Below, piece after piece: positions 1 to 39,797 of a stretch of DNA of 64,000 bases; the stretch's first letter is position 1, and every line of letters starts with the position of its first letter. Origin of the DNA: a virus (taxonomy: Duplodnaviria > Heunggongvirae > Uroviricota > Caudoviricetes); the IMG/VR virus record IMGVR_UViG_3300033069_001366, positions 47,108-111,107 of that record; one strand, 5' to 3'. A program made the translations under genes and the position numbers. The notes beneath the pieces were generated by a model. The model saw only the letters and a program-made list of their open reading frames with translations, was not told the origin of the DNA and ran no database searches.

Positions 1-163
1 AGTCCATTAATGACCTTCTTTCACCTTCTTGATTAGTGAAAGAGAAATTATAATCTAATACAGGAAGACCTTCATTATCAAGTCTCCCGTTTCCAAACCA
101 ATCCTTAAAGTCCTGAGTATCAATAAGATTTGCAATGCGTTCTCTATTTTTAGAGAGAAACAT
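1..163 (-). CDS. Partial CDS, N-terminus only. Translation starts MFLSKNRERIANLIDTQDFKDW and the gene continues beyond the window start.
   Basis: The reverse complement of plus 161-163 is ATG, and an open frame runs from there to position 1, directly after the giant ORF and on the same strand. Confidence 0.35.
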   Translation of the reverse strand, partial: MFLSKNRERIANLIDTQDFKDWFGNGRLDNEGLPVLDYNFSFTNQEGERRSLMD

Positions 164-217
164 TGAATTTATTTTTTGCCCAAGAAAATTAGATTCTATA
201 TTACAATATGCCATTTT

Positions 218-3200
218 TTAACAAGGTATTTGTTGATCTGATATATCAAATCTAGATTTATTAAATTCAATTGAGTAGTTCTTTCCAGATGTAAAGTTAT
301 GAAAAAATTGAATATCTTTCTCTTTAGCCCTTCTTTTTTTAGAATCTTGTTCTGATTCAGGGTTAAATAGATCTTTTATACCATACATCATTTTATAAAC
401 ATTCCAATTATATCTTTTGTTATTCTCAATAAACATTAGAGCAAACATTTTCATTTCATTCCTCTTTTTCATTGCTTTAAGTAACTGGTCTTGTTCTGAT
501 AAAACTTGTCCAGGTAGCTCACCCATTTCCTCTTTATAGTTGTTTATTGCAGTATCTATGAAAAACATCCAGAAGTCTGTAGGTAATAAGTCAGAAAAAT
601 TATCACTTACATTACTTGCCCCACTCTGATAAAGTGATAAGTAGGCTAATTCTGTAAAGAATGTACTTATATTTATCCTATCTTCAGGTGAAAACTCTTC
701 AGGTAACAAGAAATGAACAGGATTAAAAGTCATAAGATTTTTAAATTCTTCTACTAAAGTATTTAGATTATTTACATCATTATCATCTCTCTCAAAGAAA
801 AGATTTGAAGCAACATAGTTATCTAAAGGATTTCTAGATGTCTCATTGTCAAAGTTAAACATAGGAGACTTATTCTCTTCTTTTAAACTTTTAACAAATT
901 GAATCTTCTCTAAAGATGGATATCTTTTAATTAATGCTTTTAACTTTTGTCCATAACTAACAAAATCTTCTTTTTTACTTATATTATAAATATTTTGAAT
1001 GAAATATTTAGAAAAATTATAAGACATTTTTCTTTCAGATAAAGTTTTTAGCTTATCTTCTGATTTATTTTTTAAATCAATAACTTTATTAGGGTCTTGG
1101 ACTAAATATTCAGAGATATGTTTTCTTGTATTTGATATAGGGTCATAAATCTCAATATCTAAGTTATAATAATTTTTATATATATATTCTAAGAAATCAT
1201 TTTCTATAACATCAATCATTTCAGTTTTTACAGTCTTTCTCTCAAAAGCTTTACTTAAGATATTTCTTATCATAGTCTGGTATCCTGCGCCAAATGATTT
1301 ATTATAGAAAATATCACTTAAAACCTTTATTGTTTTTGAAGGATTAAAGATTGAATAAATAGACCTTTGATTAGTAAGTTTCTCAATTCCTTCAATATTA
1401 AAAAATCCAGAATTTTTGATTTTATCTAAAGCAATCTCTTGATCTTCTATAGAATATATATTCACATCTTTGATCCTGTCTGCAGACAGGTTGTACAAGA
1501 GACCACTAAACATTGCTGCTTCTGTATCAGCTATAGCAAAATATTTTAAAATATCTGCTTGTAATTCTTTATTTGGTTTAGTAAAGGATTCCTCCATCTC
1601 TTCTTTACTAAATTTAGTAGCTTGGTCAAACTGAGAAGATAATACTGCACCTGGTCTTCTTACTGATGGATTTAATTCAACTAATATTCTACCATCTTCC
1701 AGTGTAGCATATGTAGTTGTTGTAGTATCATTCATATTTTTACCTTCAAACATAATAGGTATATTATTTGAATTTGCTGTAAAATAAATAGCATGAGATA
1801 ACTTGTAAACTGACCCATAAAATGCTCTACCTTTACGGAAAGTTTCGTATAACTCAATTAAGATTGGTTGATTCAAGAAAAGTAAAACATTTTCTACAGA
1901 AACTCCTTTAGAAACAAGATATATAAATATTTTCTTATTTATATCATTGATACCAGCAATACTATATATAGGGTCAGCCTGTAAGTCAATAGTTAATGAC
2001 ATAAATTCATCCCATATATTAGCAATAAACATTAAATCTTCAGAATACGCACCAAAACTATTATCATTATCCTGTTTTAAAGGATTAGATATTTTCATGG
2101 TATAATCTTTAGTCATACCTGCGTATTTCCATGTATCATTTGCTTTAAGTCCAGCAAAATTTAACATAGAAAAACTCCTTCTCATAATTGCATAAAGTCC
2201 TAAAGAACCTTGATGTACATTATAATCTCTATGAATCTTTTGTTCAATTAAGTAAGAAATCTTTTGAGAGCCAGTTAATGCATTAGGTTCAATAATTTCC
2301 CTTTTTGTTAACTTTTGAATTTTTTCAATAACAGCCCTCATATTTTTTGTAGAGGATGGGTTAACTAACAAAGGATAGTAATGCTTATTTAAGACAGTAT
2401 CTATGCTACTTTTTAGTACGTCATTACTATTTGATTTATAATATACACTTAATTCCTCTAAAAGACCTTCAAATCTTTTATCTACATTCTTCCTAGGTTT
2501 TTGAGAATATTCTGAAATTTTTTCTTGAAGGGTTTTTAAAGTTCTCATATAAGAACTTAAAGTATCATCTAATTCAATTTCTTCTTTATAATTATTAACA
2601 ATCTCGTTAAATATACCATTTGATCTATTATATACCCTATCAAAATTATCTTTATCAATTTGAGATAAATCAAAAAGAATAACCTGCATTAAAGTTTCTT
2701 CAAACTTATCTAACTGTTTTAAGTCTTTAGTAAATTGTCTATTGAAGTTAGCAATTTCACTTTGCATTCTACTATATTCAGATATATCACTAGTGATAGC
2801 ATTTATATCTGCGAATATTTGATTGATATTTCTTGCCTTTGTTTTACTATCATACAAACTACCATCCTTTCTAATAGAAGGGAATATCAAGTTTGATTTA
2901 TCAATATCAAAGTCAGAACCTGTTTTAACAATATATTCAGGAGGAGTAATAATTATATTACCTGCGGATTCTGGTAAAAATTCCATAATCTCACCAACAT
3001 CTATAAAGTTGTTATTATTTGTTGGAATTCTATATGCATAAACCATAAGTTTATCCATATGTTTTGCCTTCCACTCTTTATTTTTTATAGCTTTATTTAG
3101 ATTATCTAAGGTTTTAATTTTTTTACCATTATACTCTAAGTTTAAAAGGTTTTTAAAATCACCCTGTAGAGTTATTTTAATCCCCATTGGACTAGTACTG

Positions 3201-6200
3201 ACTATATTACCCTCTTTGTCATAAACAAAATCATAATATTGCAGCCTTTCTCCTGTTTCTCTATATTGTTGTAATTCCTCAACACTAGCATTTCTAAATA
3301 AAGACTTACCTGCTGCAGTTACTTGGATAGCTGCAGTTCCTGGAAGTCTTAGAATCCTAGTTTCTTCATCAATAATACCACCAATTGATTTCATTAATCT
3401 AGCTCTTGAGAAGAGCTTTGAGAAGTCAAGATTGTATTCTCCTGTTTGTTCATTAAGGTCAAGTGCATCCAGAACATTATTTGGAAGCTTACCTTGTTTT
3501 GCCATCTTCTTAAGGAAGGAACTAAATCTTTCCTCTGAGATAAGTGTAGCTTTACCATTTTTTATTCTTACTCCTATTTGATTATATAATACCTGAGATT
3601 TGTAGTACATCAGGTTTTCAAAAGCCTGATGATAATTTTCTTCATTCTTCAGAATTTTAGCATATTCTACAGGATCTGATAGTAGCTCTTTTGTGTATTT
3701 TACATCAAACAATGAGTTCTTTTGTTGAATACCAACAATATTAGTTTTCTTAAATTGATCAGTAGATAACTGAGTCTTAAAATTACTTCTAAGGAAAACA
3801 GATGCATTTCCAGAATGTAATATTCCATTTTTCTTATCGTGAGTACCATCTTCTTTAAAGAAATTGATAACCTCACCTTTTACACCTTTTTCTACAGTTT
3901 GAAATTTAACATAGTCACCATTATTTTCAATTAATTGTTCCATTACAGCCTCATCACCATAACCTGTACCTAATAAAAATTCAGGAATAAGAACTTCCAG
4001 TGACATTTTATCAAATGAAGTTTCAAGTGGATGAGATTCATCTGTAAAAATATATGGTCCTGTATGAGACATTTTTAAAGGGTTAAATCCTTTAAATGGA
4101 GTTTTAATTAATTCCTCATCTTGCTTTCTCAATAAATCACCACTTTCACCTTCTTCATAGAGTCCATGATGTTTTCTATATATTGCAACTTGTCTATTGT
4201 ACTCATTTTCATCAGATGGTGACCATGCATTATGTAATGTTTTCATGATTCTATAAGAATCAAGACTCATCTTAGCCTGACCATTACCTACTTTAATATC
4301 GTTATATTGTTCTGTCTCTATCTTAATATCTGAACCTGTTTGCTTTCTATAGTTCTCCATATTTCTATCAATACTAGCAATATAAGGAGAGTTTAATTTC
4401 ATTTCTTTAATAGTCCATGAAGTTAACTTTCTGAAATCTTTTTGTTTAAATCCTTTTAATGCACCAAGAGATTTTTCTGACAATTTATTTAACTCTTTAT
4501 TAATACTAGGAGTTATAATAATTTGTGTACCTGTATTTGTTGAAGCTTTACCTCTTTTGAATACGTTATCAAAACTACCAGCATCACCTAATACCCATGA
4601 GTAGTACTCCACCCTATTAATAAAGTGGTTTAATACGTAAAGTTTAGCTATAGAAGGAAGAGCTGTATTTACATCAGAACCTACAGTAGCAGTTTGTTTT
4701 TTAGTTTCCTCTATCTCCTGTTCACTCATTTTTTTAGAAGTATCATCATTAGTGACAGTTTCAACATTAGCACCTCTAACATGTACATTTTTTAAGATAC
4801 TTATCTGTCTTGAAGAAAGATTTTTTAAATTAACACCATCATTACCTTTTTCTAATTCATTTATTATATTTGTAAAGTATTCAGCTAAGTTTTTAAATAC
4901 TCCTTCTTTATGTTCAGTAAAGATATCATCTATACTTTTCTTACCTATTTTATCTAGTATCTCTCCAGGATTTTCTATAATACCATCAAATATATTAAAT
5001 TTAATTTTATCTTTATATTTGGATTCATTTTTCTTATAATACTGAATTTTTTCAAGTTCCATTAAAAAGTAGTCACCAAAAATTTGCTGTAACTTTTTTC
5101 CAGTAATCTCATCTTTAGTCATAGAAGCTTCTGCTGGAGTTATAGCCATATAAACTTCTTTCTGACCTATACCATGTTGTCTAGAACCATAGTTATTTAG
5201 ACCAAAAGCAAATGCAGTAGAAGAGTCCGCAGCTCTTGGAATCTCGAATTTTCCACTTTCAAGAAACATTAAAATGTCAAAAAATACTCTATCATGCTCA
5301 TTCAAATCATTAGGATGAACTGTCTGATAAAGCCCACTCTGTTTAAATCTAAATGAAGATAAGTCAGATAATTCTATTTTTACTTTTTGGAAAGTCTCTT
5401 TTTTTCCAAACCAATAATTATTCCTATTACCATCTTTATCAAACATTAACTTATAAAATAATGTTCTTTGAAGATACGTTTTCTTATTTGGGTTTATAGG
5501 ACTTAATTCTTCTTGGAAGTCAAAATCTTTGACATTTCTTACAGAGTTTAAGAAATGAGTTCTCTCTGTAATTAGAGATTTTTCATAAGCTGGATATTTA
5601 GTTTTACCATCTCCAGATACATATGAACTATTTAGATTTTCTATAGCAAATCTTGAATCTATCTTTATTAGATCTGAAAAATTTTTCATTAAAGAATATA
5701 TCTCATAAACTGAACCTTTAAAGTCTATGTATTTTCTATCTTTGAAAAATCCAATAGGATTGTCAATTTTTGTTATGTATACAGGATTAACTTCTTTATT
5801 ATTGATTTTATCAAAAGTATGTCCCATAAGGAAACTTCTTATTGCTTTCTTTCTAGAATAAGCTGCTTCCTTATCTTCATTACTAGCAATTTTTTGAAAA
5901 TCAACAAGGTCTGAAACATTAGCCATTACAGTATCAAGATATGATCTATAAATTTGGAAGTTTTTAATCATGAAATTAAAAAGCTCTCTTGCTGTAGAAG
6001 ACAATTCACTATCCCAAAATTCTTCAGATAATTCAATACCTATATATCTAAAGAATTCCTTTTCATCTGCAACTTCACTAAATGGAAAGAAAGGATTAAG
6101 TCTTAAGATACCATCTATATTATATACAAGATTTTTTAAACTTGTATCTGTTTTAAGTTTATTTAATGTTAACTCATCATTAATAGTTCCTGTTTCTTTA

Positions 6201-9200
6201 TCTAATTTTACAGCATTGAAATTACTTCTCCATTTTGCTAATTTTTTATTAATACCTCTTCTATTCAGTTCACCTACAGAAGCTACTAATTTATGTTTAT
6301 CAGGATTACGATCATAGTCTACAAATAATTCATAGTTAGTAATATGAGGTAAACTCATAATATTTGTAAATGAATTAATAAATGCAAAGTTTTCAGCATT
6401 ATCAATTTTAGATGATAATGTTTCTAAATCATTAGCAATGAATCTTGCCTGAGGGAATTTTTTAACAAATGCCTCTGATTTAAGTACAAGAATCATATCT
6501 TCAATTGTCCTAGTGTTCTTTAACATTTCTTTTACGTTATTGAACATTGTTTTGGAGTCAACTAATTCTTTAAGTCCTAATTCATTATATTTAAATACAA
6601 AATTTCCATTACTATCAATAGAATCAACTTGAGGTAAAGAAAGAAAATAATCTTTTATTTGCTTGGATGCTTTATCAAAAGCATCCTCATCATTAGCCCC
6701 TTTATTATATGTTGAAGTTTTTTTACTTTCAGTTTCTGAACCTATTTCGTCCATATCTCCATCAATCACTTCTATAAATGTATCATCGAGTTCATTAACT
6801 TCCTTTTCAATATCTTGAATAGTTTTATCTTCTAAAGGAGTAGGATTATTTACAATAATATCACGAAGAGCCTGTATAGAAGACCTTGATAAGTATGCAT
6901 CATAGAATATATTAAAGTTGTTTTCCTCTAAGAGATTATCCATCTCTTTAGCAGTATTTATTCTTTGTCTAACATAATCTATGTTTAAACCATTAATTTT
7001 AGCTGTTCTATTGACTATACTTTCTTCATCATTATTAATAGCATCCATATAGTAAGTATACTTACTTTCAGGATAACTAAATTCTTTTAGTATTTTTTCG
7101 TGAGCATCTTGTAAAGCTCTTCTTACATTACTTTTTAAAGTTTCAGGTCTTTTAAGAACTCTTAAGAAATTAGGAGCTAATCCCATTTTCCTAAGTAGAT
7201 CCGAAACAATACCATCTACAGATTTTATATATAAAGGTATTCTAGAAGGAAGAATAATGTTGTTACCATCCCTATCATAAATCCCTGCATTTAACCCACT
7301 AAACATTACATTAGATACAGACCTAGTATATTTTTCAATAGAGCCATTATAAAGATCATTAAAATATCTTTCTGCTAATGGTCTATAATTAAAAATAAAT
7401 TTAATAAAATCCCAAAGTCTTTGGAAAATACCTTTTATACCTTTATATTTTTCAGGATTTTTAGGGAAACTATATGAAGCAGGATCTTTAGCAAATCTCA
7501 TAAACTCATATGCTAAAAATTCTTCTATTTCCATAAAGGTAGAATCCTTTGTATTTCTTGCATTACCTTTTTCATCAATATAAGGAATAGCTTCTTTTTG
7601 AATAGATGTATATAAAATATTCTTCTGTTCTCTAGTTAAGTATAACTGAGAAAATTCATGCCATCCTTCATGATAAGCCACACCATCTAGGAATCTTTTA
7701 TAGAAAGTTGTACCTTGAGTAGTCCAATAAGCAGCAGTTTTATCATGAACCATTGCAGACAATCTGTACTTAAACTTACCTTTAAACATTCTCTGAACAT
7801 GTTCTAATTGAGGTTTCATTTTCCCCCAATCAATCTCCTCATATCGGTTATTGAAAACCATTTCTAAAGGTTCAACCTCATCTTTATTTCCAAATGTTGG
7901 TTGTTCAGGAATACCAGTATTATTTTCGTCAATCTTAATAGTAGCCTCACGTATACTTTCATATGAAGAAGCTATATTTAGCTGACTTATAGTAAAATCA
8001 TAAGCATAAGTTATTCCTAATACAGTTTTACCTCTGTATATATCTGGTAGATCAGATTCTTTTAAATCTATATAATCTACATTTAAATTACTTGGTGCAA
8101 CAGGTAGTAAATTATTATCATTTTGTGCTTTTAATACAGTAGTATATGTAAAATTAATAAGAGTTGAAATAGGGTCTACACTGAACCCTGCTTTCTTTAA
8201 AGACTCTCTATAAATATGAAGCTGAGTAGCGTAATTCTCAAGTTTTGTTATATTACCATATTTTCCAGGTTTTGTAAGTTTATCTGAAGTTACCTTTACA
8301 TCAAATACTTTTACATTTCCATTTTTATCAATACCTATAACATCCACCTCACCATGCGTAAATCTTTCTGTATTAAATTCCATAAATGTTTTTACTGCAG
8401 GGATAAGGTAATACTCGTCAGATAACTGGTCTATTATATTTTGAAAGTTTTTAATATACCTAGTCAAAGTATCTGCAGTCATTATAGAGCTAAGTTTAAC
8501 TTTAGAGTTACCTACTATAAACTGGGTATCTAAATTTGGAATTTCTCCATTAGTTACCATCTTAAATATTTCATCTACTGCAGTACCTAAATTTATATAA
8601 ATATTAGGATCAAGTGATTTTATTTCTTCAAAAGGTCTAACTATATTACTAGCACGGAATCTTGCCTTACCAGCTTTATTTGCAAAAGTTTGAGCTTGTT
8701 TATGATAAGTTTTAATTTTGTTAGCAACCTCAGTTTGTATAGTAGTTCTGATTATTTCTTTCTTCTCTTCTACTTTTACATAGTTTTCCATTAAAACCTT
8801 CTTAGGCATTTGCTGTCCATCTTCAAGCTCAATAGTATTACCTTTAATAGAAGATACTCTTATTTTTATACTTGGATCTTTTTTAAGTTGATATAGACCT
8901 ACTTCTAGGTTATCTTCATTTACTCCTGAGGTAGGCTCTTTTACATTCTGTACAGATATTAAACCATCTTCATTTAAATCAAGCTTAAAAAGAAGTCTTT
9001 TATTGATTTTAACAAATCTAGTATCACTAGGTCCCACTTTTGCTTTTATAGCTCCTGACCTAAAGTTATTATATAAGAAATTTTGTGCTGAGATTGTTGC
9101 ATTATTACTTAAAGGAATCTTAAGTTCAAATGTATCAAAAAGTCCTCTTGAGTAGTTTATTTCCATATCCCATAAACCACCCCTTCCAGGAACTGATGTA

Positions 9201-12200
9201 TTAAATTTTATTTCAATATTTCCATCACTATTAAAGTGTATATTGGCATATTTTGAATAAGCAAATGTTCTAAGAAAACTAAAGAATTCAAGATATTCAT
9301 CAGAGTTTTCAAATAGTTTATTTCCTTTATATTCATCTTCTAAACGGAGAACTCCTTTATCACTTAAAACTTGAATTGCTCCATATAATCTAGTATCGCT
9401 AGTAATTTTTTCACCATTATCAAATACCATCTCTCTTAGAGATGTTCCTTGAAGTGGGATGTATAATTTAGAAGGTATATCATATATATAAGGTCTACCA
9501 ATCTTAATTCTTTGTGTTAAAGAACCATCATTATTTGGACCCGAATCCCATGAACCTCTTACATAATCTACAGTATATCCATCTATTTTTACATCAAAGT
9601 CCTGTTCTGTAATATCATTATCATCAACCATTTGTTGAACAGTTCTCATGTTCTCCCACTTAGCTCCACCAGAGGCAAAGCTATTATCTTCTAGATTTGA
9701 TGTAAGAAGTCTTCCTGCAAGTATATACCCAACTGTTCCTAAAATAGGAACTTTATTATGTAAGGCTTCATAAAGAAGTGTCTGAGGATCTTTATCAGAT
9801 TTAAATCCTGATTTAATAGAACCTGGCTTTTTTGTAATTTTACTACTTCTAGATATGTTTAAATTAGCTTTTGTAAATAATTCAAACTCAAATCTAAAAC
9901 CATGTATCGTACCCTCTTCTTTTTCTACAATATCACCTTTATCATTAAAATAAAGATAATTACCTTGTTCATCAGCAAGAAAAGCAACTATTTCAGGGAT
10001 AGTAGTAAACTTAGTTTCCAGACTAAATTTCTTATTTTCATCTGTAAGAAGTTCGAATTTAAGTTTTATAGGTTGTGGATTTTCAGCTATTTTTTCTAAA
10101 ATATAATGCTGTTTTCTTGCTAGTTTATCAGATTCAGTAGTAAGACCACCACCTTCTGCTAACTCTTGAGGGTTTACAGTAACAGTTGCTATTTCCCCTT
10201 GCTGTCTTGATAAATCAACAAAGTGACTGATTATATTTTCTTCGCTATCTTTTTGAGGGAACTCAAAGAAATCCTTATCTCCATCAGAAGGAGGTATATT
10301 TATTGAGTCATTATCTCCTACTTCAGGAGTATCCTCTAAAGGTTCTGCTTTTTTAAATTCTTCAATTTTACCATCTTTTGCAATATCCTCTGGAGATTTT
10401 CCTGCAGGAGGGATATTATTTATAAACCTTTGGAACTCGTCCTTTACTATTTTAGGGACATCTTCGTTTTTAATTGGATTTATTTGCTCATTTTCATCTT
10501 CAATCCAGAAAAGGTCTGGTTCATCCTTAAAGACTGCATATGTTTGATTGTTATACTTTATATCATAACTATCTCCTACGTCTTCAATTTTTACTTCTGG
10601 TTTAGATTCAGGAGCTTTTTCTTTAGTTCCATAAATATCTTTATAAGCCTGACTATTCTTTTCTCCCTCAGAAGGTTCAGGTAATAAATCTTCATTAAAT
10701 ATAGTAGAAATAGCCTTTCTTACAACTGCAGGGTTGGCAAGTTTTGGATATTCTTTTTGTAGATACCCTCTTACAAATCCTTTATCCATATTTCCTACAG
10801 CTTGTTCTAATTGGTCAGCAGTATCTTTATCATTTGAATCTAAAGCATTAATAAATGTCTTTAATGTATTTTCATCAGGGTTTATCTCAGGGGTTTCTTC
10901 TTTAGTAGGTTCTTCTTGAGTCTGAGGTTGTTCTTCAGCAGTTTGTAATTTCTCTTCTGCTTTTTTTAAATCTTCTTCAGCTTGTTCTTCTTTCTCTTTA
11001 CTTTTAGCAAATTCTTTTGCAAGAGGAACTAAGAAGTTTGCAATTTGATCATTAAATCTAATGTATTTAGTATTACCTGTAGCTAAAAAATTATTCAGAT
11101 CTAAATTATCCTGATAATTCTTTTGATATTTTAGATAATCAATTAAATCATCTCTTTTAGACCTATTAAAATCTTCAACTCTCCTTGATAAAGGAGCTGT
11201 ATTTTCCCAAGAACCTTGGGTTTTTATAGAAGCTTCTACATAACCTTGAATTTCATCTGCAAGTTCTTCAATAGGATATTGCTTTTTTTCAACTAGTGTT
11301 TTTATATTATCTAATCTACTAAGTGCCTCTTCAATATAATTTTTTCTATCTTCATTAGTTTCTATTTGTAATCTCTTAGTTAAATTATCTATTAAAGGTT
11401 TAGTGTTACCTAAAAAGAAAATATCCTCTAAGAATGAATAATCTGCCTTAGAGTTTAAGTCATAAGGATCAGATGATAAAGATTTATCATTTAATTTAGA
11501 TAAAATCTTCTTAGCTTCTTTAGCTGCATTTAACATGTTTGCTTGAGAAAAAACAGAAGCTTTATGCATTTCTGTTAATCCAATCATAGCTATCTGATGA
11601 AGATTAAATTCTCCATATATTTCCTGTAGCTCATTAAATATAGCAGGATCTAAATTATCTACATCTACCTCACCTTTATCATTTTTAGGAAGAGTTAGAA
11701 GAAAACTATCATACTTATCTTTTGCGTTACTATATGCAGTAGCTGCTACTTCAAAGTCAGATTGAATAAGCTTCTTTTGATTCTCGAATATTTTCTCGAA
11801 TTCTTTGCTGTTTTCTTGTAAATTTGAAGAAAAGTTCTTAATAGAAGACATTAATTGTTCCTGAGACTCAGGAGTTAAATATTCCTCTTTATCAATTTGC
11901 AGGGTATTAGCAAGTGTTTCAAAATCCATACTTGCTAAATTTTTCATCTTCTCAATCTGTAAATCTATTTTACCTGTTTGTAATCCATTATATAGGAATC
12001 TTAAAAGTTGAATATTTTGAGCATTTTTTAAATTAAAAATGTCATTTTTATCAATAAATTTACCAGCAACATATTGAGTTCTTCTATCTTTTATAAAATC
12101 TAAAAACCCATCTGTTTTAAATATATCTGCTATACCTTGAGCATTTAGAAATGCTGCAGTTTTCTTAAGATTTGCTATGTATCTTTCCTTTTGGATTTTA

Positions 12201-13804
12201 TCCATTCCAAGACCAAAAGCCTTGTTAAGAAAGTTTTCTTTATATTGAGGAACACCATCTATTTCAACTTTATTACCTTGTTCATCAACAGCTTGTTTTG
12301 GTCTTGCTAAAATATCAAAAGGTTTTCTGATATGTTGAAAAATAGCACCTGTAGCTAAACCTGCAGTAAATTCTTTAAGACCTTCGTTACTCAGTACATA
12401 ATCAAATCCTGCACCTAAAGATCCTAATAAATCGCTATCTTTACCTTGATAAATATCTTTATAATAATCAGTTACAGATTTAGTAACTAATGCCTGATAA
12501 GATTCTTCTACACCTTCCCATGAGGTATTTTTTAAACCAGAACCAACTGCCATTAAAGCCCCTTTTATTCCTTGCCTCTTTACAGGCTCTTCTACTGCTG
12601 CTTCTAAACCTTTAACAACAAGTTTAGCCTCATTCTTGCTTATTCCTAGAATTCTACCAAGACTTGTAGCAGCAAGTTTTTCAAATGATTTAGGAGCAAC
12701 CATATTACCAAACTGTACAAAGTTACTTGCCATTAAAAATGGTGTCTCAAATTGAATAGTCCTTCTAGCAATATTATCACCAGCAGCATTAATTCTTTTT
12801 AATTCTTCTGAATTAGGGAGCCTTCCATTCTTTCTAAAAAAGTCTTGTGTCTGGGATTCTACAAAATCATTTTTTGCCATTGCTCCTTCAAGAGTTGACT
12901 CAGATAAAGCACCATTCATTATTCTATATCCCTGACCTATTCCTTGTAGTGTTTTTCCTATATTTTTAGCAGCTATACCACCTTTTATAGTATTATAAAT
13001 TTTCTTAATATTATAATAATCTGATATTGCCTTATATGCAGTTCTCGCATTTTTGAATAAAGCTGGAACTGCACCAATTCCCTCTGTTGCAGCAGATATT
13101 GCTGCAGTTTCAGTAAGTGCTGCTCCAATAGTACCTAATGTAAAACCAATAGATTGTCCTGCTTCTTCCCAATAGTCACCTCTATATAATTCATACCATT
13201 TAGTAGGTTTATCTGTTTTATAATCAGGATACAAATCTTCTAGTGCTTCCATTCCTTTTACATACTCTTGGAATCTAGGTTGGTTTGCTAAAACAGCTAA
13301 ATCAAGTTTATGTACGTTAGATAAAACATCTGCATATTCCATGAAATAATTTCCATATTGAAACTTAGTAGTATTCCACATTTTTGCGAATACACTTTGT
13401 AAAGATTCAAATGAAGATTCATGAAAATCATATTGAGCATCCATTATATCATTTGGTAGCTCTGGATTAAACCCTACTTTTGCATAAAGCTCTGGGTCTC
13501 TCTCATATCTTGAGCTTTGTTTAGCACTATAACCTCTAAACATTAGAGGTTTGGAAGGTGATGGTTTGAACGTAGGATTAGACATTACATCTGATAATAT
13601 CTTCAATGTATCAGGATTAGTCTTATCAAGAGATAGACTTACTGCATCTTTTACATTAGATGGAGTAATTTCCTCACCTGATAATCTACCTAAAATATTA
13701 TTATACTCCTCTAAACCTGGAGGTATAGGAAGCTTTGATGGTAAATCTTCTGGCATCACAACATTAAGAGGTGAGCCTACTGAACTATCAATTGGATTTG
13801 GCAT
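218..13804 (-). CDS. Giant multidomain virion protein (4528 aa), candidate crAss-like virion-packaged RNA polymerase with a beta-prime-like DPBB domain.
   Basis: The ORF is 13.6 kb and uninterrupted. The motif GSDFDIDK lies at about residue 3630 (plus about 2898-2920) and resembles the NADFDGD-type catalytic Asp triad of two-barrel RNAPs. It sits at the end of a block of large virion proteins. Confidence 0.6.
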   Translation of the reverse strand: MPNPIDSSVGSPLNVVMPEDLPSKLPIPPGLEEYNNILGRLSGEEITPSNVKDAVSLSLDKTNPDTLKILSDVMSNPTFKPSPSKPLMFRGYSAKQSSRYERDPELYAKVGFNPELPNDIMDAQYDFHESSFESLQSVFAKMWNTTKFQYGNYFMEYADVLSNVHKLDLAVLANQPRFQEYVKGMEALEDLYPDYKTDKPTKWYELYRGDYWEEAGQSIGFTLGTIGAALTETAAISAATEGIGAVPALFKNARTAYKAISDYYNIKKIYNTIKGGIAAKNIGKTLQGIGQGYRIMNGALSESTLEGAMAKNDFVESQTQDFFRKNGRLPNSEELKRINAAGDNIARRTIQFETPFLMASNFVQFGNMVAPKSFEKLAATSLGRILGISKNEAKLVVKGLEAAVEEPVKRQGIKGALMAVGSGLKNTSWEGVEESYQALVTKSVTDYYKDIYQGKDSDLLGSLGAGFDYVLSNEGLKEFTAGLATGAIFQHIRKPFDILARPKQAVDEQGNKVEIDGVPQYKENFLNKAFGLGMDKIQKERYIANLKKTAAFLNAQGIADIFKTDGFLDFIKDRRTQYVAGKFIDKNDIFNLKNAQNIQLLRFLYNGLQTGKIDLQIEKMKNLASMDFETLANTLQIDKEEYLTPESQEQLMSSIKNFSSNLQENSKEFEKIFENQKKLIQSDFEVAATAYSNAKDKYDSFLLTLPKNDKGEVDVDNLDPAIFNELQEIYGEFNLHQIAMIGLTEMHKASVFSQANMLNAAKEAKKILSKLNDKSLSSDPYDLNSKADYSFLEDIFFLGNTKPLIDNLTKRLQIETNEDRKNYIEEALSRLDNIKTLVEKKQYPIEELADEIQGYVEASIKTQGSWENTAPLSRRVEDFNRSKRDDLIDYLKYQKNYQDNLDLNNFLATGNTKYIRFNDQIANFLVPLAKEFAKSKEKEEQAEEDLKKAEEKLQTAEEQPQTQEEPTKEETPEINPDENTLKTFINALDSNDKDTADQLEQAVGNMDKGFVRGYLQKEYPKLANPAVVRKAISTIFNEDLLPEPSEGEKNSQAYKDIYGTKEKAPESKPEVKIEDVGDSYDIKYNNQTYAVFKDEPDLFWIEDENEQINPIKNEDVPKIVKDEFQRFINNIPPAGKSPEDIAKDGKIEEFKKAEPLEDTPEVGDNDSINIPPSDGDKDFFEFPQKDSEENIISHFVDLSRQQGEIATVTVNPQELAEGGGLTTESDKLARKQHYILEKIAENPQPIKLKFELLTDENKKFSLETKFTTIPEIVAFLADEQGNYLYFNDKGDIVEKEEGTIHGFRFEFELFTKANLNISRSSKITKKPGSIKSGFKSDKDPQTLLYEALHNKVPILGTVGYILAGRLLTSNLEDNSFASGGAKWENMRTVQQMVDDNDITEQDFDVKIDGYTVDYVRGSWDSGPNNDGSLTQRIKIGRPYIYDIPSKLYIPLQGTSLREMVFDNGEKITSDTRLYGAIQVLSDKGVLRLEDEYKGNKLFENSDEYLEFFSFLRTFAYSKYANIHFNSDGNIEIKFNTSVPGRGGLWDMEINYSRGLFDTFELKIPLSNNATISAQNFLYNNFRSGAIKAKVGPSDTRFVKINKRLLFKLDLNEDGLISVQNVKEPTSGVNEDNLEVGLYQLKKDPSIKIRVSSIKGNTIELEDGQQMPKKVLMENYVKVEEKKEIIRTTIQTEVANKIKTYHKQAQTFANKAGKARFRASNIVRPFEEIKSLDPNIYINLGTAVDEIFKMVTNGEIPNLDTQFIVGNSKVKLSSIMTADTLTRYIKNFQNIIDQLSDEYYLIPAVKTFMEFNTERFTHGEVDVIGIDKNGNVKVFDVKVTSDKLTKPGKYGNITKLENYATQLHIYRESLKKAGFSVDPISTLINFTYTTVLKAQNDNNLLPVAPSNLNVDYIDLKESDLPDIYRGKTVLGITYAYDFTISQLNIASSYESIREATIKIDENNTGIPEQPTFGNKDEVEPLEMVFNNRYEEIDWGKMKPQLEHVQRMFKGKFKYRLSAMVHDKTAAYWTTQGTTFYKRFLDGVAYHEGWHEFSQLYLTREQKNILYTSIQKEAIPYIDEKGNARNTKDSTFMEIEEFLAYEFMRFAKDPASYSFPKNPEKYKGIKGIFQRLWDFIKFIFNYRPLAERYFNDLYNGSIEKYTRSVSNVMFSGLNAGIYDRDGNNIILPSRIPLYIKSVDGIVSDLLRKMGLAPNFLRVLKRPETLKSNVRRALQDAHEKILKEFSYPESKYTYYMDAINNDEESIVNRTAKINGLNIDYVRQRINTAKEMDNLLEENNFNIFYDAYLSRSSIQALRDIIVNNPTPLEDKTIQDIEKEVNELDDTFIEVIDGDMDEIGSETESKKTSTYNKGANDEDAFDKASKQIKDYFLSLPQVDSIDSNGNFVFKYNELGLKELVDSKTMFNNVKEMLKNTRTIEDMILVLKSEAFVKKFPQARFIANDLETLSSKIDNAENFAFINSFTNIMSLPHITNYELFVDYDRNPDKHKLVASVGELNRRGINKKLAKWRSNFNAVKLDKETGTINDELTLNKLKTDTSLKNLVYNIDGILRLNPFFPFSEVADEKEFFRYIGIELSEEFWDSELSSTARELFNFMIKNFQIYRSYLDTVMANVSDLVDFQKIASNEDKEAAYSRKKAIRSFLMGHTFDKINNKEVNPVYITKIDNPIGFFKDRKYIDFKGSVYEIYSLMKNFSDLIKIDSRFAIENLNSSYVSGDGKTKYPAYEKSLITERTHFLNSVRNVKDFDFQEELSPINPNKKTYLQRTLFYKLMFDKDGNRNNYWFGKKETFQKVKIELSDLSSFRFKQSGLYQTVHPNDLNEHDRVFFDILMFLESGKFEIPRAADSSTAFAFGLNNYGSRQHGIGQKEVYMAITPAEASMTKDEITGKKLQQIFGDYFLMELEKIQYYKKNESKYKDKIKFNIFDGIIENPGEILDKIGKKSIDDIFTEHKEGVFKNLAEYFTNIINELEKGNDGVNLKNLSSRQISILKNVHVRGANVETVTNDDTSKKMSEQEIEETKKQTATVGSDVNTALPSIAKLYVLNHFINRVEYYSWVLGDAGSFDNVFKRGKASTNTGTQIIITPSINKELNKLSEKSLGALKGFKQKDFRKLTSWTIKEMKLNSPYIASIDRNMENYRKQTGSDIKIETEQYNDIKVGNGQAKMSLDSYRIMKTLHNAWSPSDENEYNRQVAIYRKHHGLYEEGESGDLLRKQDEELIKTPFKGFNPLKMSHTGPYIFTDESHPLETSFDKMSLEVLIPEFLLGTGYGDEAVMEQLIENNGDYVKFQTVEKGVKGEVINFFKEDGTHDKKNGILHSGNASVFLRSNFKTQLSTDQFKKTNIVGIQQKNSLFDVKYTKELLSDPVEYAKILKNEENYHQAFENLMYYKSQVLYNQIGVRIKNGKATLISEERFSSFLKKMAKQGKLPNNVLDALDLNEQTGEYNLDFSKLFSRARLMKSIGGIIDEETRILRLPGTAAIQVTAAGKSLFRNASVEELQQYRETGERLQYYDFVYDKEGNIVSTSPMGIKITLQGDFKNLLNLEYNGKKIKTLDNLNKAIKNKEWKAKHMDKLMVYAYRIPTNNNNFIDVGEIMEFLPESAGNIIITPPEYIVKTGSDFDIDKSNLIFPSIRKDGSLYDSKTKARNINQIFADINAITSDISEYSRMQSEIANFNRQFTKDLKQLDKFEETLMQVILFDLSQIDKDNFDRVYNRSNGIFNEIVNNYKEEIELDDTLSSYMRTLKTLQEKISEYSQKPRKNVDKRFEGLLEELSVYYKSNSNDVLKSSIDTVLNKHYYPLLVNPSSTKNMRAVIEKIQKLTKREIIEPNALTGSQKISYLIEQKIHRDYNVHQGSLGLYAIMRRSFSMLNFAGLKANDTWKYAGMTKDYTMKISNPLKQDNDNSFGAYSEDLMFIANIWDEFMSLTIDLQADPIYSIAGINDINKKIFIYLVSKGVSVENVLLFLNQPILIELYETFRKGRAFYGSVYKLSHAIYFTANSNNIPIMFEGKNMNDTTTTTYATLEDGRILVELNPSVRRPGAVLSSQFDQATKFSKEEMEESFTKPNKELQADILKYFAIADTEAAMFSGLLYNLSADRIKDVNIYSIEDQEIALDKIKNSGFFNIEGIEKLTNQRSIYSIFNPSKTIKVLSDIFYNKSFGAGYQTMIRNILSKAFERKTVKTEMIDVIENDFLEYIYKNYYNLDIEIYDPISNTRKHISEYLVQDPNKVIDLKNKSEDKLKTLSERKMSYNFSKYFIQNIYNISKKEDFVSYGQKLKALIKRYPSLEKIQFVKSLKEENKSPMFNFDNETSRNPLDNYVASNLFFERDDNDVNNLNTLVEEFKNLMTFNPVHFLLPEEFSPEDRINISTFFTELAYLSLYQSGASNVSDNFSDLLPTDFWMFFIDTAINNYKEEMGELPGQVLSEQDQLLKAMKKRNEMKMFALMFIENNKRYNWNVYKMMYGIKDLFNPESEQDSKKRRAKEKDIQFFHNFTSGKNYSIEFNKSRFDISDQQIPC

Positions 13805-16496: not shown

Positions 16497-16925
16497 TTAT
16501 TTATGTGATATTAGATAATACAATGCGTTTTCTATATTTGATTGATTATCTTTAAATGAACCTAAACCTTTATTACACAAAGAACAGAGTAAGCCTCGTA
16601 CTTTTCCTGTTTTATGATCATGATCTACACATAAACTCTTATTTAGTTCTGATTCTGGAGTACCACAAATAGCACATTTTCCTACTTGTTCAAAGTATAT
16701 TTTGTCATATTCTTTCTTTGTAAGATTATACTTACTTATGACAAATTTTTCTCTATAGTACTCTTTAGGATAAATTTTCCTACTTTTAGGGTAGGACTTT
16801 TGCTTTTGACATAAACATTCTTTACAGGAACCTGTAAAATATCCATCTGATTTAGGATAAAATTCAGATATTGTTTTCTGAATTTTACATATTTTACAAA
16901 CTTTTTCCTTTATATTATGTTTCAT
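16497..16925 (-). CDS. HNH, endonuclease-VII type homing endonuclease (142 aa).
   Basis: Motif CAICG...LCVDHDHKTGKVRGLLCSLCNKGLG, which is the canonical DHDH-TG-RGLLC-CN-LG endo VII/HNH_3 signature. An N-terminal Cys pair suggests a zinc finger. Confidence 0.75.
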   Translation of the reverse strand: MKHNIKEKVCKICKIQKTISEFYPKSDGYFTGSCKECLCQKQKSYPKSRKIYPKEYYREKFVISKYNLTKKEYDKIYFEQVGKCAICGTPESELNKSLCVDHDHKTGKVRGLLCSLCNKGLGSFKDNQSNIENALYYLISHK

Positions 16926-38892: not shown

Positions 38893-38965
38893 TTGACTTG
38901 GTGAGTAACGATCTCACTACCTTTACATTATCAGTGTAACGCTCTACCATTTGAGCTACAAGTCA
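38893..38965 (-). tRNA. tRNA-Ile(GAU).
   Basis: Acceptor TGACTTG/CAAGTCA. D-arm GCTC-AAATGGTA-GAGC. Anticodon arm TTACA-CTGATAA-TGTAA. T-arm GTGAG-ATCGTTA-CTCAC. Confidence 0.65.
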
Positions 38966-39501
38966 TTATTAATTATTTGAAAATGTATCTCTGCATGACA
39001 ATTTTTACACACTAAAATACATTTATCTAATTCAGACTTTAAGTTTTGAAAACTTTTAGTTCCACCACTTATAGTATAATCTTTTTTATTAGGATCAATA
39101 TGATGAAATTCTAAAGCAGCAAGACATTTATTATATCCACATTTACAACATTTCCCTCCTTTATATTCTACACATTGTTCTTTTACTTTTAACCTATAGC
39201 CTTTTTTTCTTTTGTCAGCTTTTTGTTTAATTTGAAGTTTTGTAAGTTTTCTTGCTTTTAATTTTTTACCTAATAATTGTCTTGATACTTTAAATTTATC
39301 AGCAACACCTTTAAAAGATAATCCTTGATCATAAGCATCCTGATATATTTTTAATAATTCAGGTGTATATTTATCAACTTTGTTAATAAATTTTGAACAA
39401 TGATAACTTACTGTTGATTTAGAGCATCTTAACTGTTTAGATATTTCAGCAGAACTAAATCCTTTATGAAAAAGTTCCAAAATTTTTGTCTTTTTAACCA
39501 T
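38956..39501 (-). CDS. HTH-HNH homing endonuclease (181 aa).
   Basis: N-terminal HTH-like segment (SSAEISKQLRCSKSTVSYH). C-terminal EFHHIDPNKKD...LVCKNCHAEIH HNH motif with Cys pairs. Confidence 0.65.
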   Translation of the reverse strand: MVKKTKILELFHKGFSSAEISKQLRCSKSTVSYHCSKFINKVDKYTPELLKIYQDAYDQGLSFKGVADKFKVSRQLLGKKLKARKLTKLQIKQKADKRKKGYRLKVKEQCVEYKGGKCCKCGYNKCLAALEFHHIDPNKKDYTISGGTKSFQNLKSELDKCILVCKNCHAEIHFQIINNDL

Positions 39502-39561
39502 TATTGTATACTTTATATATACAATATAAGATAAAAGTTCGAATTTATCAAATTTATTTTG

Positions 39562-39638
39562 TACTGATGATTAGATTCGAACTAATGTGTAACCAACTAC
39601 CTTTTCAACTGGATATAAGCCAGAGAGGATACATCAGC
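39562..39638 (-). tRNA. tRNA-like element, non-canonical and a possible pseudo-tRNA; identity unresolved.
   Basis: Acceptor GCTGATG/CATCAGT and a good T-arm ATTAG-TTCGAAT-CTAAT. The body has only one clean stem-loop (CTGG-CTTATAT-CCAG) and no standard D-arm. Confidence 0.3.
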
Positions 39639-39641
39639 ATG

Positions 39642-39716
39642 TCGCCTATCACGGATTCGAACCGAGGATCTTTCCTTAGACAGAGGAACAGGGACGACCA
39701 ACTCCCCTAATAGGCG
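39642..39716 (-). tRNA. tRNA-Asp(GUC).
   Basis: Anticodon arm TTCCT-CTGTCTA-AGGAA. D-arm GGGG/CCCT. T-loop TTCGAAT with one U-U pair in the T-stem. Confidence 0.6.
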
Positions 39717-39720
39717 TTAG

Positions 39721-39794
39721 TACCATGTATGGGATTCGAACCCATGAATAACACCGTGAAAGAGTGTTGACCTAGACCGCTAGTCAAACATGGC
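39721..39794 (-). tRNA. tRNA-Glu(UUC).
   Basis: Acceptor GCCATGT/ACATGGT. Anticodon arm ACACT-CTTTCAC-GGTGT. T-arm ATGGG-TTCGAAT-CCCAT. Confidence 0.65.
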
Positions 39795-39797
39795 ATG

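What the first reader, a model, noticed from the sequence alone, without database searches (positions are those of the whole stretch)
218..13804. Giant 4528-aa ORF with a DFDID catalytic-loop motif: candidate virion-packaged multisubunit-like RNA polymerase of a crAss-like phage
A single uninterrupted 13.6-kb gene encodes GSDFDIDK at about residue 3630 (plus about 2898-2920), resembling the universally conserved NADFDGD Mg-binding loop of the beta-prime double-psi beta-barrel. It lies at the end of a block of very large virion proteins (898, 556, 1954, 878 and 1534 aa), which is the arrangement described for crAss-like phages that inject a giant RNAP. At 4528 aa it would be among the largest phage proteins, and most of it (residues 1 to about 3400) is unassigned.
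Basis: partly seen in the sequence, partly recalled or inferred. Interest (0 to 1): 0.8.

Follow-up and report, generated by a model that had tools for sequence, protein, structure and literature searches.

The report
Fused giant crAss-like virion RNA polymerase
The 13.6-kb gene is real and encodes a crAss-like phage's virion RNA polymerase fused to its usual partner protein; this is a known hallmark of these phages, but its single, very last cysteine led to an apparently undescribed rule of cysteine-capped ends in this protein set.

Summary
ORF 218..13804 (-) is an uninterrupted 4528-aa gene with GSDFDIDK at aa 3629-3636 (window 2897-2920).

The RNA polymerase (RNAP) interpretation is supported.
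- A family profile hits phi14:2 gp66 (PDB 6VR4) at E=1.5e-100.
- hhalign aligns giant aa 3049-3988 to the gp66 catalytic core 856-1660 (Prob 99.4%), and every family-invariant residue is identical.

- The giant is collinear with PhiCrAss001 gp47 plus gp50. A partner protein carrying a conserved HExxH...EE domain is fused to the RNAP.
- It is not the last gene of the block: a 2151-aa gene starts at window 214.
- Its size is ordinary for the family, which has many 4000-4900-aa members.

So this is a new member of a known kind.

One by-product deserves attention. These proteins almost lack cysteine (1 in 4528 here), and the few they have sit at the termini. The partner protein has one at its C-end, the RNAP at both ends, and the third protein at its N-end. 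This held in 63/63 to 75/76 cases across 80 loci. Fused giants lack the junction pair. A head-to-tail disulfide chain of ejected proteins would explain this, but it is untested.

The parts
218..13804 (-). Giant gene of 4528 aa: a fusion of a gp47-type RNAP-associated cargo protein (N-terminal about 2200 aa) and a gp66/gp50-type virion RNA polymerase (C-terminal about 2300 aa).
   Evidence: ORF confirmed. The identical protein occurs in two other assemblies. An end-to-end homologue, P0005 (4523 aa), is 31-37% identical.
11015..13549 (-). Module A, aa about 86-930. It is homologous to the N-terminal part of PhiCrAss001 gp47; its biochemical function is unknown.
   Evidence: Shared with 13 of the 150 best representatives. 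hhalign of the module A profile against gp47 gives Prob 96.4%, E=1.3e-9, with giant 127-750 aligned to gp47 90-724. The match to phi14:2 gp67 is only suggestive (Prob 40%).
10415..10927 (-). Acidic, poorly conserved linker, aa about 960-1130.
   Evidence: No homologue coverage. E+D make up 25-27 residues per 100.
8546..10297 (-). Module B, aa about 1170-1753. It is specific to this clade and remains unassigned.
   Evidence: Found only in the 6 closest homologues. No hit in crAss001, crAss002, cr4_1 or phi14:2 proteins.
7085..7852 (-). Conserved HExxH...EE domain, aa about 1985-2240. HEGWH is aa 2045-2049 (window 7658-7672) and E2094/E2095 are at window 7520-7525. It is a candidate gluzincin-type metallopeptidase.
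   Evidence: Present upstream of the polymerase in 95-101 of 150 representatives. H2045, E2046, H2049, F2051 and E2095 are invariant. It matches the gp47 C-terminal region (HMM E=1.7e-23; hhalign Prob 98.7%) and the crAss002 gp32 C-terminus (Prob 70.7%). The fold was not confirmed.
221..6997 (-). RNA polymerase module, aa about 2270-4528, equivalent to phi14:2 gp66 and PhiCrAss001 gp50.
   Evidence: Collinear BLAST segments to gp66 with an offset of about 2200-2330. The A2 profile covers gp66 153-2061. The later part of the modC HMM matches gp50 170-378.
1841..4660 (-). Catalytic core, aa 3049-3988, containing both barrels, the connector, the bridge helix and the trigger loop.
3887..4075 (-). 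First (beta-like) barrel region with invariant K3244, K3266 and K3306.
   Evidence: These are invariant columns in A1. They are identical to gp66 K1012, K1027 and K1065 and lie on predicted beta-strands at model residues 244-273 and 299-302.
3329..3787 (-). Connector between the two barrels, aa about 3340-3492.
   Evidence: Aligned to the gp66 connector 1095-1238 (landmark positions from the paper read).
2900..2914 (-). DFDID Mg-binding catalytic loop, aa 3631-3635.
   Evidence: Identical to gp66 1361-DFDID-1365. D3631, D3633 and D3635 are invariant. Position 4 is I or V, as stated for all crAss-like RNAPs.
2156..2230 (-). Bridge-helix equivalent, aa about 3859-3883.
   Evidence: Aligned to gp66 1529-1559.
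1913..2020 (-). Trigger-loop equivalent, aa about 3929-3964, containing invariant D3940.
   Evidence: Aligned to gp66 1598-1636, with D3940 matching D1612. A collinear BLAST segment links giant 3920-3985 to gp66 1588-1657.
221..223 (-). Codon of Cys4528, the only cysteine and the last residue of the protein.
   Evidence: A Cys in the last 8 residues occurs in 140/150 representatives and in 75/76 IMG/VR polymerase ORFs.
1..214 (-). 5' end of the next gene, which encodes a 2151-aa protein starting MAYC... It is the third protein of the set (the gp65/gp49 position) and runs off the window edge.
   Evidence: Its C-terminal part is homologous to cr4_1 gp27 (Prob 98.6%) and to the C-terminal part of crAss002 gp33 (Prob 91.8%). 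The match to phi14:2 gp65 is weak (Prob 48.8%).

Best explanation
The ORF is a genuine single gene of a deeply divergent crAss-like phage. It encodes, in one chain, two of the three large 'transcription block' cargo proteins of crassviruses. The first is a gp47-type partner protein (aa 1 to about 2200), whose C-terminal end carries a conserved HExxH...EE domain. The second is the virion RNA polymerase (aa about 2270-4528), a single-chain two-barrel DNA-dependent RNAP of the phi14:2 gp66 / PhiCrAss001 gp50 type. Its active site is built from a beta-like barrel with invariant lysines and a beta-prime-like barrel carrying DFDID. By analogy with phi14:2 and PhiCrAss001, the protein is made late and packed in the capsid as cargo. 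It is then pushed partly unfolded through the tail into the host, where it transcribes early phage genes from the incoming DNA. Shown here: gene integrity, homology, fold, conservation of every catalytic-core invariant, synteny, and cysteine depletion. Inferred: packaging, ejection, activity, and any processing.
For: Gene integrity: the ORF is intact. The identical protein is encoded in two other independent assemblies. The same fused architecture occurs in homologues at 30-37% identity (P0005, P0004, P0002), in cr4_1 gp26 (HEAFH at 2002, DFDID at 3433) and in IMG/VR loci L015, L021 and L081.

Family: phmmer with aa 3100-4100 finds 637 representative proteins at E<=1e-3, mostly 2000-4800 aa.

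Link to the solved enzyme: a family profile hits 6VR4 at E=1.5e-100. hhalign of the giant-clade profile against gp66 gives Prob 99.4% and E=5e-21. K3083, R3084, K3244, K3266, K3306, Q3345, Q3360, R3592, D3631, D3633, D3635, N3794 and D3940 are all identical in gp66.

Fusion map: module A matches gp47 90-724 (Prob 96.4%). The HExxH module matches gp47 1775-2297, and its later part matches gp50 170-378. The RNAP module matches gp50 1060-1930 (Prob 98.6%).

Context: the gene lies on the same strand downstream of TerL, portal, major capsid protein and tail genes.

Ejection: the giant has 1 Cys where about 74 are expected from the rest of the window (P about 1e-30). This is the signature reported for ejected proteins of N4-like phages (PMC11445570). 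gp47, gp49 and gp50 were found in PhiCrAss001 virions by mass spectrometry (PMC10172136). gp66 was shown to be virion-borne and active, and it is dead when any DFDID Asp is mutated (bioRxiv 10.1101/2020.03.07.982082).
Against: There is no experimental data for this phage. Direct pairwise similarity to gp66 is short: 60 aa at 40% identity, E=5e-8 in a three-protein database. The link therefore rests on profiles and a predicted structure. Pfam, PHROGs and single-sequence PDB searches of the whole protein find nothing. About 1300 aa (the linker, module B and parts of 2480-3050) remain unassigned. The metallopeptidase nature of the HExxH domain rests on motifs only. Whether the fusion stays intact or is cleaved is unknown.
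Confidence: 0.9

Rival explanations
1. Self-processing polyprotein. The chain is cut after translation or after ejection near aa 2200-2400, possibly by its own HExxH domain, to release a free RNAP of about 2300 aa. This refines the best explanation rather than contradicting it.
For: Drobysheva et al. state that fused versions are 'likely cleaved into individual components' and that a zincin-like protease might activate the RNAP. The invariant HExxH...EE domain sits next to the point where other phages split the gene. An acidic, poorly conserved stretch lies at aa about 2300-2400.
Against: No peptidase family or fold could be confirmed for the domain. No cleavage-site motif was identified. In split phages the same domain is retained although nothing needs cutting at that position.
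Confidence: 0.3
2. Catalytically inactive relic. The protein keeps the polymerase fold but serves only as structural or ejection cargo, for example as a channel or plug.
For: Most of the chain is not polymerase. Crassvirus cargo proteins are also proposed to build the ejection channel.
Against: Every residue that is invariant across the family, including the three Asp, the barrel lysines and the trigger-loop Asp, is retained. Retention at 20% overall identity indicates purifying selection on catalysis.
Confidence: 0.04
3. Assembly or gene-calling artefact. Two adjacent genes (gp47-like and gp50-like) appear joined because a stop codon was lost to a sequencing error.
For: Many relatives do have two genes split near this point.
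Against: The identical 4528-aa product occurs in a JGI assembly and an independent Logan assembly, and 16,493 nt are identical to the window. Fused homologues at only 30-37% identity exist. The fused giants also lack the cysteine pair that flanks real gene junctions.
Confidence: 0.02
4. A T7/N4-type single-subunit RNAP, or a beta-prime subunit that needs a separate beta partner.
For: N4-like phages also inject a giant, cysteine-free virion RNAP. The DFDxD motif resembles the beta-prime NADFDGD loop.
Against: There are no Pfam hits to T7-type or Rpb1-type domains. The top structural matches are the single-chain two-barrel enzymes gp66, QDE-1 and RDR2. Both barrels lie in one chain.
Confidence: 0.01

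Closest known systems
Cellulophaga phage phi14:2 gp66, virion-packaged DNA-dependent RNAP (PDB 6VR4; Drobysheva et al.)
   Different: gp66 is a separate 2180-aa protein with Cys at both ends (C3, C2179). The window protein has about 2270 extra N-terminal residues, including an HExxH domain that gp66 and gp67 lack. Identity is only about 20% over the core.
Bacteroides phage PhiCrAss001 gp47 (2341 aa) plus gp50 (2412 aa), RNAP-associated cargo proteins detected in virions
   Same: The giant is collinear with gp47 followed by gp50. Module A matches the gp47 N-terminus, the HExxH domain matches the gp47 C-terminus (HEAFH at 2157), and the RNAP matches gp50 (DFDVD at 1483). Combined length is 4753 aa against 4528 aa.
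   Different: In PhiCrAss001 the two genes are separate and lie on opposite strands. gp47 ends in Cys and gp50 starts with Cys, whereas the fusion has no cysteine at the junction. Module B has no counterpart.
Uncultured crAss-like phage cr4_1 gp26 (4491 aa; Suoliviridae) and crAss002 gp32/gp33
   Same: cr4_1 gp26 has the same fused architecture (HEAFH at 2002, DFDID at 3433) and is followed by a homologue of the downstream 2151-aa protein. crAss002 gp33 (4245 aa) is already annotated 'putative RNAP catalytic subunit'.
   Different: Identity is 21-24% and only over the core. cr4_1 uses recoded stop codons (38 in-frame stops under table 11). crAss002 splits after the HExxH domain and instead fuses the RNAP to the third protein.
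Neurospora QDE-1 and plant RDR2 (eukaryotic two-barrel RNA-silencing polymerases)
   Different: There is no detectable sequence similarity. They are cellular enzymes, are not virion-packaged, and lack the phage-specific domains.
Phage N4 gp50 and DEV gp71 virion RNAPs (Schitoviridae)
   Same: They work alike: a giant (about 3400-3500 aa), cysteine-free polymerase is packaged and ejected to transcribe early genes.
   Different: The catalytic fold is unrelated (T7-like single-subunit). They are not family members.

Membership tests
crAss-like virion RNAP (phi14:2 gp66 / PhiCrAss001 gp50 family) | DFDxD catalytic loop with I or V at position 4 and three invariant Asp | tested here: met
   DFDID lies at aa 3631-3635. 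The Asp are invariant in alignments A1 and A2. Among the 150 best homologues, 89 have DFDID and 17 have DFDVD. The rule is stated in the paper read.
crAss-like virion RNAP (phi14:2 gp66 / PhiCrAss001 gp50 family) | Significant sequence or profile homology to the solved enzyme | tested here: met
   Profile A2 against PDB hits 6vr4_A at E=1.5e-100. hhalign of the giant-clade profile against gp66 gives Prob 99.4% and E=5e-21, and against gp50 gives Prob 98.6%.
crAss-like virion RNAP (phi14:2 gp66 / PhiCrAss001 gp50 family) | Two double-psi beta-barrels in one chain joined by a connector, plus a bridge helix and a trigger loop | tested here: met
crAss-like virion RNAP (phi14:2 gp66 / PhiCrAss001 gp50 family) | Encoded in the block of giant genes after the tail genes of a crAss-like genome | tested here: met
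   TerL, portal and major capsid protein match PHROGs families. The best TerL relatives are crAss-like Flavobacterium and Bacteroides phages at about 25% identity. Gene order is given.
crAss-like virion RNAP (phi14:2 gp66 / PhiCrAss001 gp50 family) | Present in the virion and translocated into the host | not testable with these tools
   Support is indirect: extreme Cys depletion, as in ejected N4-like proteins, and homologues detected in virions.
crAss-like virion RNAP (phi14:2 gp66 / PhiCrAss001 gp50 family) | Mg-dependent DNA-templated RNA synthesis | not testable with these tools
   Inferred from conserved catalytic residues.
Cellular multisubunit RNAP beta-prime (RpoC/Rpb1) | Recognisable Rpb1-type domains by sequence | tested here: not met
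T7/N4-type single-subunit RNAP | Pfam RNA_pol (T7-like) domain or a right-hand fold | tested here: not met
   There is no Pfam or PDB sequence hit. No such structure appears among the top structural matches.
Zincin (gluzincin) metallopeptidase, for the aa 1985-2240 domain | HExxH on a helix plus a downstream Glu as the third zinc ligand | tested here: met
   HEGWH at 2045-2049 and E2094/E2095 are invariant or nearly so in about 100 homologues. The model places HExxH on helix 83-96 and EE on helix 131-147, with local pLDDT 60-91.
Zincin (gluzincin) metallopeptidase, for the aa 1985-2240 domain | Zincin fold, or homology to a known peptidase family | tested here: inconclusive
   The model has mean pLDDT 57 and Foldseek found no match at E<=0.001. 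The profile against PDB finds nothing significant. Pfam scans of 16 members return no peptidase family. There is no significant similarity to the HExxH region of phi14:2 gp65 (Prob 3%).

The most novel reading that the evidence does not exclude
The three giant 'transcription block' proteins of crassviruses (called P1, P2 and P3 in the full report) are joined head to tail through single terminal cysteines. The partner protein's C-terminus bonds to the RNAP N-terminus, and the RNAP C-terminus bonds to the third protein's N-terminus, most simply by disulfides formed in the virion. They would then leave the capsid as one linear thread in a fixed order and be released by reduction in the cytoplasm. 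Wherever evolution splits the polyprotein into genes, a cysteine pair caps the break. Where genes are fused, as in this 4528-aa protein, the pair is gone. All other cysteines are purged so that the thread cannot branch.
Probability: 0.3. Interest if true: 0.75.

Novelty: new member of a known kind. Interest (0 to 1): 0.38.

Why it matters
The finding as given does not change what is known. Giant RNAP genes with a DFDxD loop are the recognised hallmark of crAss-like phages, and fused 'polyprotein' versions have been mentioned before. Three things are added.

1. A precise domain map of a fused version. It shows that the fusion equals PhiCrAss001 gp47 plus gp50 and places a conserved HExxH...EE domain at the junction.

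2. A highly divergent clade: TerL is about 25% identical to any deposited phage, and the RNAP is at most 39% identical to any cluster representative. This is useful for alignments and for defining the truly invariant residues.

3. The terminal-cysteine rule. [quoted passage not shown]

Tried and rejected
- A whole-protein search of the 5.8-billion-protein database timed out. With aa 3100-4100 it found a single homologue, so the exhaustive HMMER library was used instead.
- PHROGs, Pfam and single-sequence PDB searches of the whole giant found nothing.
- tblastn of aa 1-1500 and 1501-3000 against 50,697 phage records found nothing.
- Alignment A1 was too large for structure prediction and for the PDB profile search. 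It was replaced by A2.
- For the HExxH domain, the PDB profile search, the AF2 model (pLDDT 57), Foldseek and Pfam scans of 16 members gave no peptidase assignment.
- The giant's HExxH domain is not detectably the same as the HExxH region of phi14:2 gp65, cr4_1 gp27 or the window's 1954-aa ORF (Prob 3%, 16% and 1%). I therefore did not equate it with the published 'gp65 zincin'.
- The idea that the 1534-aa ORF might be the real RNAP (it hits a 2289-position PHROG) was rejected: it has no DxDxD motif and the giant carries the homology.
- Module B and the downstream protein gave no usable match to gp47, gp49 or gp67. The hhalign line for the downstream protein against gp49 aligned only 2 columns and was discarded as unreliable.
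- Single-sequence hhalign of the 898-, 556-, 878- and 1954-aa ORFs against PhiCrAss001 cargo proteins gp45 and gp46 found nothing.
- A nucleotide-level explanation of the junction cysteines (translational coupling or readthrough signal) was rejected because PhiCrAss001 gp47 and gp50 obey the rule while lying on opposite strands.
- A control set of 150-900-aa ORFs from the IMG/VR loci was contaminated by block fragments and is not a clean baseline. The window's own 26 non-block ORFs were used instead.
- The Nature version of Drobysheva et al. is not held, so only the preprint could be checked for cysteines.
Full report
OBSERVATION. The minus-strand ORF 218..13804 is real: 4528 codons, ATG start and no internal stop. 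It overlaps the upstream 898-aa ORF by 17 nt. GSDFDIDK is at aa 3629-3636, which is window 2897-2920. A loose DxDxD motif is expected about 1.4 times by chance, and 3 occur. Exact DFDID is expected 0.006 times. Only one ORF of at least 100 aa lies on the opposite strand (5970..6317); it is probably spurious. The identical 4528-aa product is encoded on a JGI contig (3300020576, Ga0212216_10000077) and on an independent Logan contig (SRR32380203). The JGI locus is identical to the window over 16,493 nt.

CONTEXT. All ORFs of at least 150 aa lie on the minus strand. PHROGs identifies TerL (57140-59356), portal (54377-57136) and major head protein (51398-53092). It also finds tail-related matches and 'virion structural protein' matches among the large ORFs. 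TerL is only about 25% identical to its best relatives in 50,697 phage records. Those relatives are crAss-like Flavobacterium and Bacteroides phages. The window is therefore a deeply divergent crAss-like phage.

IS IT THE RNA POLYMERASE? The whole protein has no Pfam, PHROGs or PDB match by single-sequence search. tblastn of aa 3001-4528 hits 46 Crassvirales records over giant aa about 3160-3998. These include crAss002 gp33, annotated 'putative RNAP catalytic subunit', and cr4_1 gp26.

An exhaustive phmmer search with aa 3100-4100 finds 637 cluster representatives at E<=1e-3 and 83 at E<=1e-30. Most are 2000-4800 aa. Among the best 150, 89 carry DFDID, 17 DFDVD and 5 DFDFD.

A 45-sequence alignment has 19 invariant columns. 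The 17 followed up here, in giant numbering, are K3083, R3084, G3092, K3244, K3266, K3306, Q3345, Q3360, G3489, R3592, P3594, G3629, D3631, D3633, D3635, N3794 and D3940.

A profile of a 35-sequence alignment hits 6VR4 (phi14:2 gp66) at E=1.5e-100, covering gp66 153-1264 and 1328-2061. To exclude a purely transitive link, I built a profile from the giant and its 13 closest relatives only and aligned it to the gp66 sequence. The result was Prob 99.4%, E=5e-21, with giant 3049-3988 aligned to gp66 856-1660, 768 columns and 19.5% identity. Of those residues, the eleven non-glycine, non-proline ones checked one by one, plus the aligned DFDID loop, are identical in gp66.

The published gp66 landmarks map as follows:
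- connector: aa 3340-3492
- DFDID: aa 3631-3635
- bridge helix: aa 3859-3883
- trigger loop: aa 3929-3964

Direct BLASTP gives 40% identity over giant 3586-3645 against gp66 1316-1375, plus weaker collinear segments.

WHAT IS THE REST? BLAST of the giant against the 150 representatives divides it into parts:
- Module A (about aa 20-980) occurs in 13 representatives.
- An acidic linker (about 980-1130) has no conservation.
- Module B (about 1130-1800) occurs only in the 6 closest relatives.
- Module C (about 1800-2480) occurs in 95-101 representatives.
- The polymerase follows.

Module C contains HEGWH at 2045-2049 and E2094/E2095. H2045, E2046, H2049, F2051 and E2095 are invariant. That is a gluzincin-like signature, but no peptidase family or fold could be confirmed.

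Against PhiCrAss001:
- Module A matches gp47 90-724 (Prob 96.4%).
- Module C matches gp47 1775-1873 and 2073-2297 (E=1.7e-23). This region contains gp47's HEAFH at 2157.
- The later part of module C matches gp50 170-378.
- The polymerase module matches gp50 1060-1930 (Prob 98.6%).

The giant is therefore collinear with gp47 followed by gp50 (4753 aa together). The former gene boundary lies at roughly aa 2180-2270.

The same fusion exists in P0005, P0004 and P0002 (end-to-end homologues at 30-37% identity), in cr4_1 gp26 and in IMG/VR loci L015, L021 and L081. [quoted passage not shown] A review quotes RNAP genes of 'up to ~6000 aa' as a hallmark.

NOT THE END OF THE BLOCK. Four nucleotides after the stop codon, at window 214, the next gene starts (MAYCNIE...) and runs off the window. 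On the JGI contig it encodes 2151 aa. Its C-terminal part is homologous to cr4_1 gp27 (Prob 98.6%) and to the C-terminal part of crAss002 gp33 (Prob 91.8%). Its match to phi14:2 gp65 is weak (Prob 48.8%). It occupies the position of the third protein of the set.

MECHANISM (inferred). Three published results frame the inference. gp66 is virion-borne, enters the cell and transcribes early genes, and mutating any DFDID Asp kills it. gp47, gp49 and gp50 are PhiCrAss001 virion cargo, thought to be extruded partly unfolded through the tail. Ejected proteins of N4-like phages are purged of cysteine. The giant has 1 Cys where about 74 are expected from the other window ORFs (1.62% Cys; Poisson P about 1e-30). 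The neighbouring 898-, 556- and 1954-aa ORFs have none. This supports ejection, and it does not depend on homology.

BY-PRODUCT: A TERMINAL-CYSTEINE RULE. The giant's only Cys is its last residue. In what follows, P1 is the gp47/gp67-type partner protein, P2 is the RNAP, and P3 is the third protein (the gp65/gp49 position).

In the 150 representatives there are 347 Cys in 478,139 residues (0.073%). Of these, 244 lie within the first or last 8 residues, against 1.7 expected.

Named phages follow the pattern:
- In phi14:2, gp67 ends ...NTIC and this is its only Cys.
- gp66 has exactly C3 and C2179.
- gp65 has only C3.
- In PhiCrAss001, gp47 has only C2339.
- gp50 has C5, C1334 and C2404.
- gp49 has only C5.
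- gp47 is encoded on the strand opposite to gp50 and gp49. This excludes a nucleotide-level junction signal.

I then tested the prediction that P1 has a C-terminal Cys, P2 has a Cys at both ends, and P3 has an N-terminal Cys. It held in three newly fetched split-type contigs. It also held in 80 IMG/VR loci:
- P2 N-terminal Cys: 63 of 67.
- P2 C-terminal Cys: 75 of 76.
- Upstream ORF C-terminal Cys: 55 of 62 (its N-terminus: 1 of 15).
- Downstream ORF N-terminal Cys: 63 of 63 (its C-terminus: 4 of 40).

Those 4 downstream ORFs with a C-terminal Cys are short (506-1064 aa). I read them as a further split of the third protein, capped by a further cysteine pair.

The four polymerase ORFs without an N-terminal Cys are giants of 4065-5002 aa with cysteine-free upstream neighbours. 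Three of them (L015, L021, L081) look like fusions of the window's type. The fourth, L077 (5002 aa), lacks both terminal cysteines and is unexplained.

The baseline in the window's 26 other ORFs is 3 and 4 of 26, despite their 1.6% Cys content.

The simplest reading is that cysteine pairs re-join the pieces of a split polyprotein head to tail. Disulfides do exist in PhiCrAss001 virions. The gp66 termini are among the few residues not modelled in the crystal structure. No bond has been shown. A role in metal binding or in attachment to another partner is not excluded.

I found no mention of these cysteines in the gp66 preprint, the PhiCrAss001 atlas or a 2023 review. The journal version of the gp66 paper is not held.

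VERDICT. The protein is a new, very divergent member of a known kind: a fused gp47-type plus gp50/gp66-type crAss virion RNAP. On its own merits it is of modest interest. The terminal-cysteine rule is the part worth following up.

Noticed in passing
window 221-223 (Cys4528) and 203-205 (Cys4 of the next gene); loci L003, L005, L007, L009-L093: Terminal-cysteine rule in the crAss RNAP block. The partner protein has its only Cys at the C-end, the RNAP has one Cys at each end, and the third protein has one at the N-end. In 150 representatives, 244 of 347 Cys lie in the terminal 8 residues (1.7 expected). In 80 IMG/VR loci the rule holds in 63/63 to 75/76 cases. Fused giants lack the junction pair. 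PhiCrAss001 obeys the rule although gp47 and gp50 lie on opposite strands. This suggests head-to-tail covalent chaining of ejected proteins.
   Followed up: yes
window 13788-16484, 16971-18641, 18632-24496, 24498-27134: The 898-, 556- and 1954-aa ORFs contain no cysteine at all, and the 878-aa ORF has 2. The other 26 window ORFs average 1.62% Cys. This marks these proteins as likely ejected cargo too. No similarity to PhiCrAss001 gp45 or gp46 was detectable with single sequences.
   Followed up: partly
window 1-214 (-): Start of a further giant gene (2151 aa on the JGI contig), separated from the giant's stop codon by 3 nt.
   Followed up: yes
window 16497-16925 (-): A 142-aa, cysteine-rich ORF (10 Cys) with a Pfam Endonuclease_7 hit sits between the 556- and 898-aa cargo genes. 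It is probably a homing-type endonuclease inserted in the block. A similar gene occupies the same position in L012.
   Followed up: no
window 18632-24496 (-), 1954-aa ORF: It has its own HExxH (HEKYH at aa 781) with a weak, non-significant resemblance to the HEIMH region of phi14:2 gp65. Its C-terminal 150 aa match tail and tape-measure PHROGs at E=1e-13.
   Followed up: partly
window 27131-31735 (-), 1534-aa ORF: It matches positions 1188-1739 of a 2289-position PHROG, 'virion structural protein' (E=4e-38). It is rich in Cys (17) and has no DxDxD motif. By position it may be the muzzle ('stabilization') protein, but this was not tested.
   Followed up: no
L012 19606-26079, L013 16969-22719, L005 (phi14:2 gp65): The third protein of the set often carries a second, different HExxH domain about 250-275 aa from its N-terminal Cys (HEVAHFF, HEIIHPF, HEIMH). 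The window phage's 2151-aa homologue has no HExxH. Both HExxH domains of the block therefore lie close to a cysteine-capped junction.
   Followed up: partly
L002 5800-19275 (cr4_1 gp26): Under table 11 this 4491-aa homologue contains 38 in-frame stops, so that phage recodes a stop codon. The window phage does not.
   Followed up: no
L077 3743-18760: A 5002-aa ORF with DYDID at aa 2613 has no terminal cysteines and two internal ones (2130, 2533). It is an exception to the rule, possibly a fully fused or different architecture.
   Followed up: no
L007 22737-22934; L003 11732-11935; L009 24470-24688; L011 24821-25045: A conserved 65-74-aa ORF starting MNIQL.TG, with a single Cys at position 34, directly follows the third giant gene in four related phages.
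   Followed up: no
window 13777-13804 and 16457-16484; L008, L009, L011, L012, L013: N-termini are conserved across distant relatives. The partner protein or giant starts MP[DN]..(N)P (MPNPIDSS, MPDILNPA, MPDLINPL, MPDTPNIL). The upstream 860-990-aa protein starts M..(S)TSPY or similar. These may be leading ends for packaging or ejection.
   Followed up: no
window 38956-47293: A run of small and medium ORFs has unusually high cysteine content (4-7.5%; for example 41935-42498 has 14 Cys in 187 aa). This contrasts sharply with the cysteine-free cargo block.
   Followed up: no
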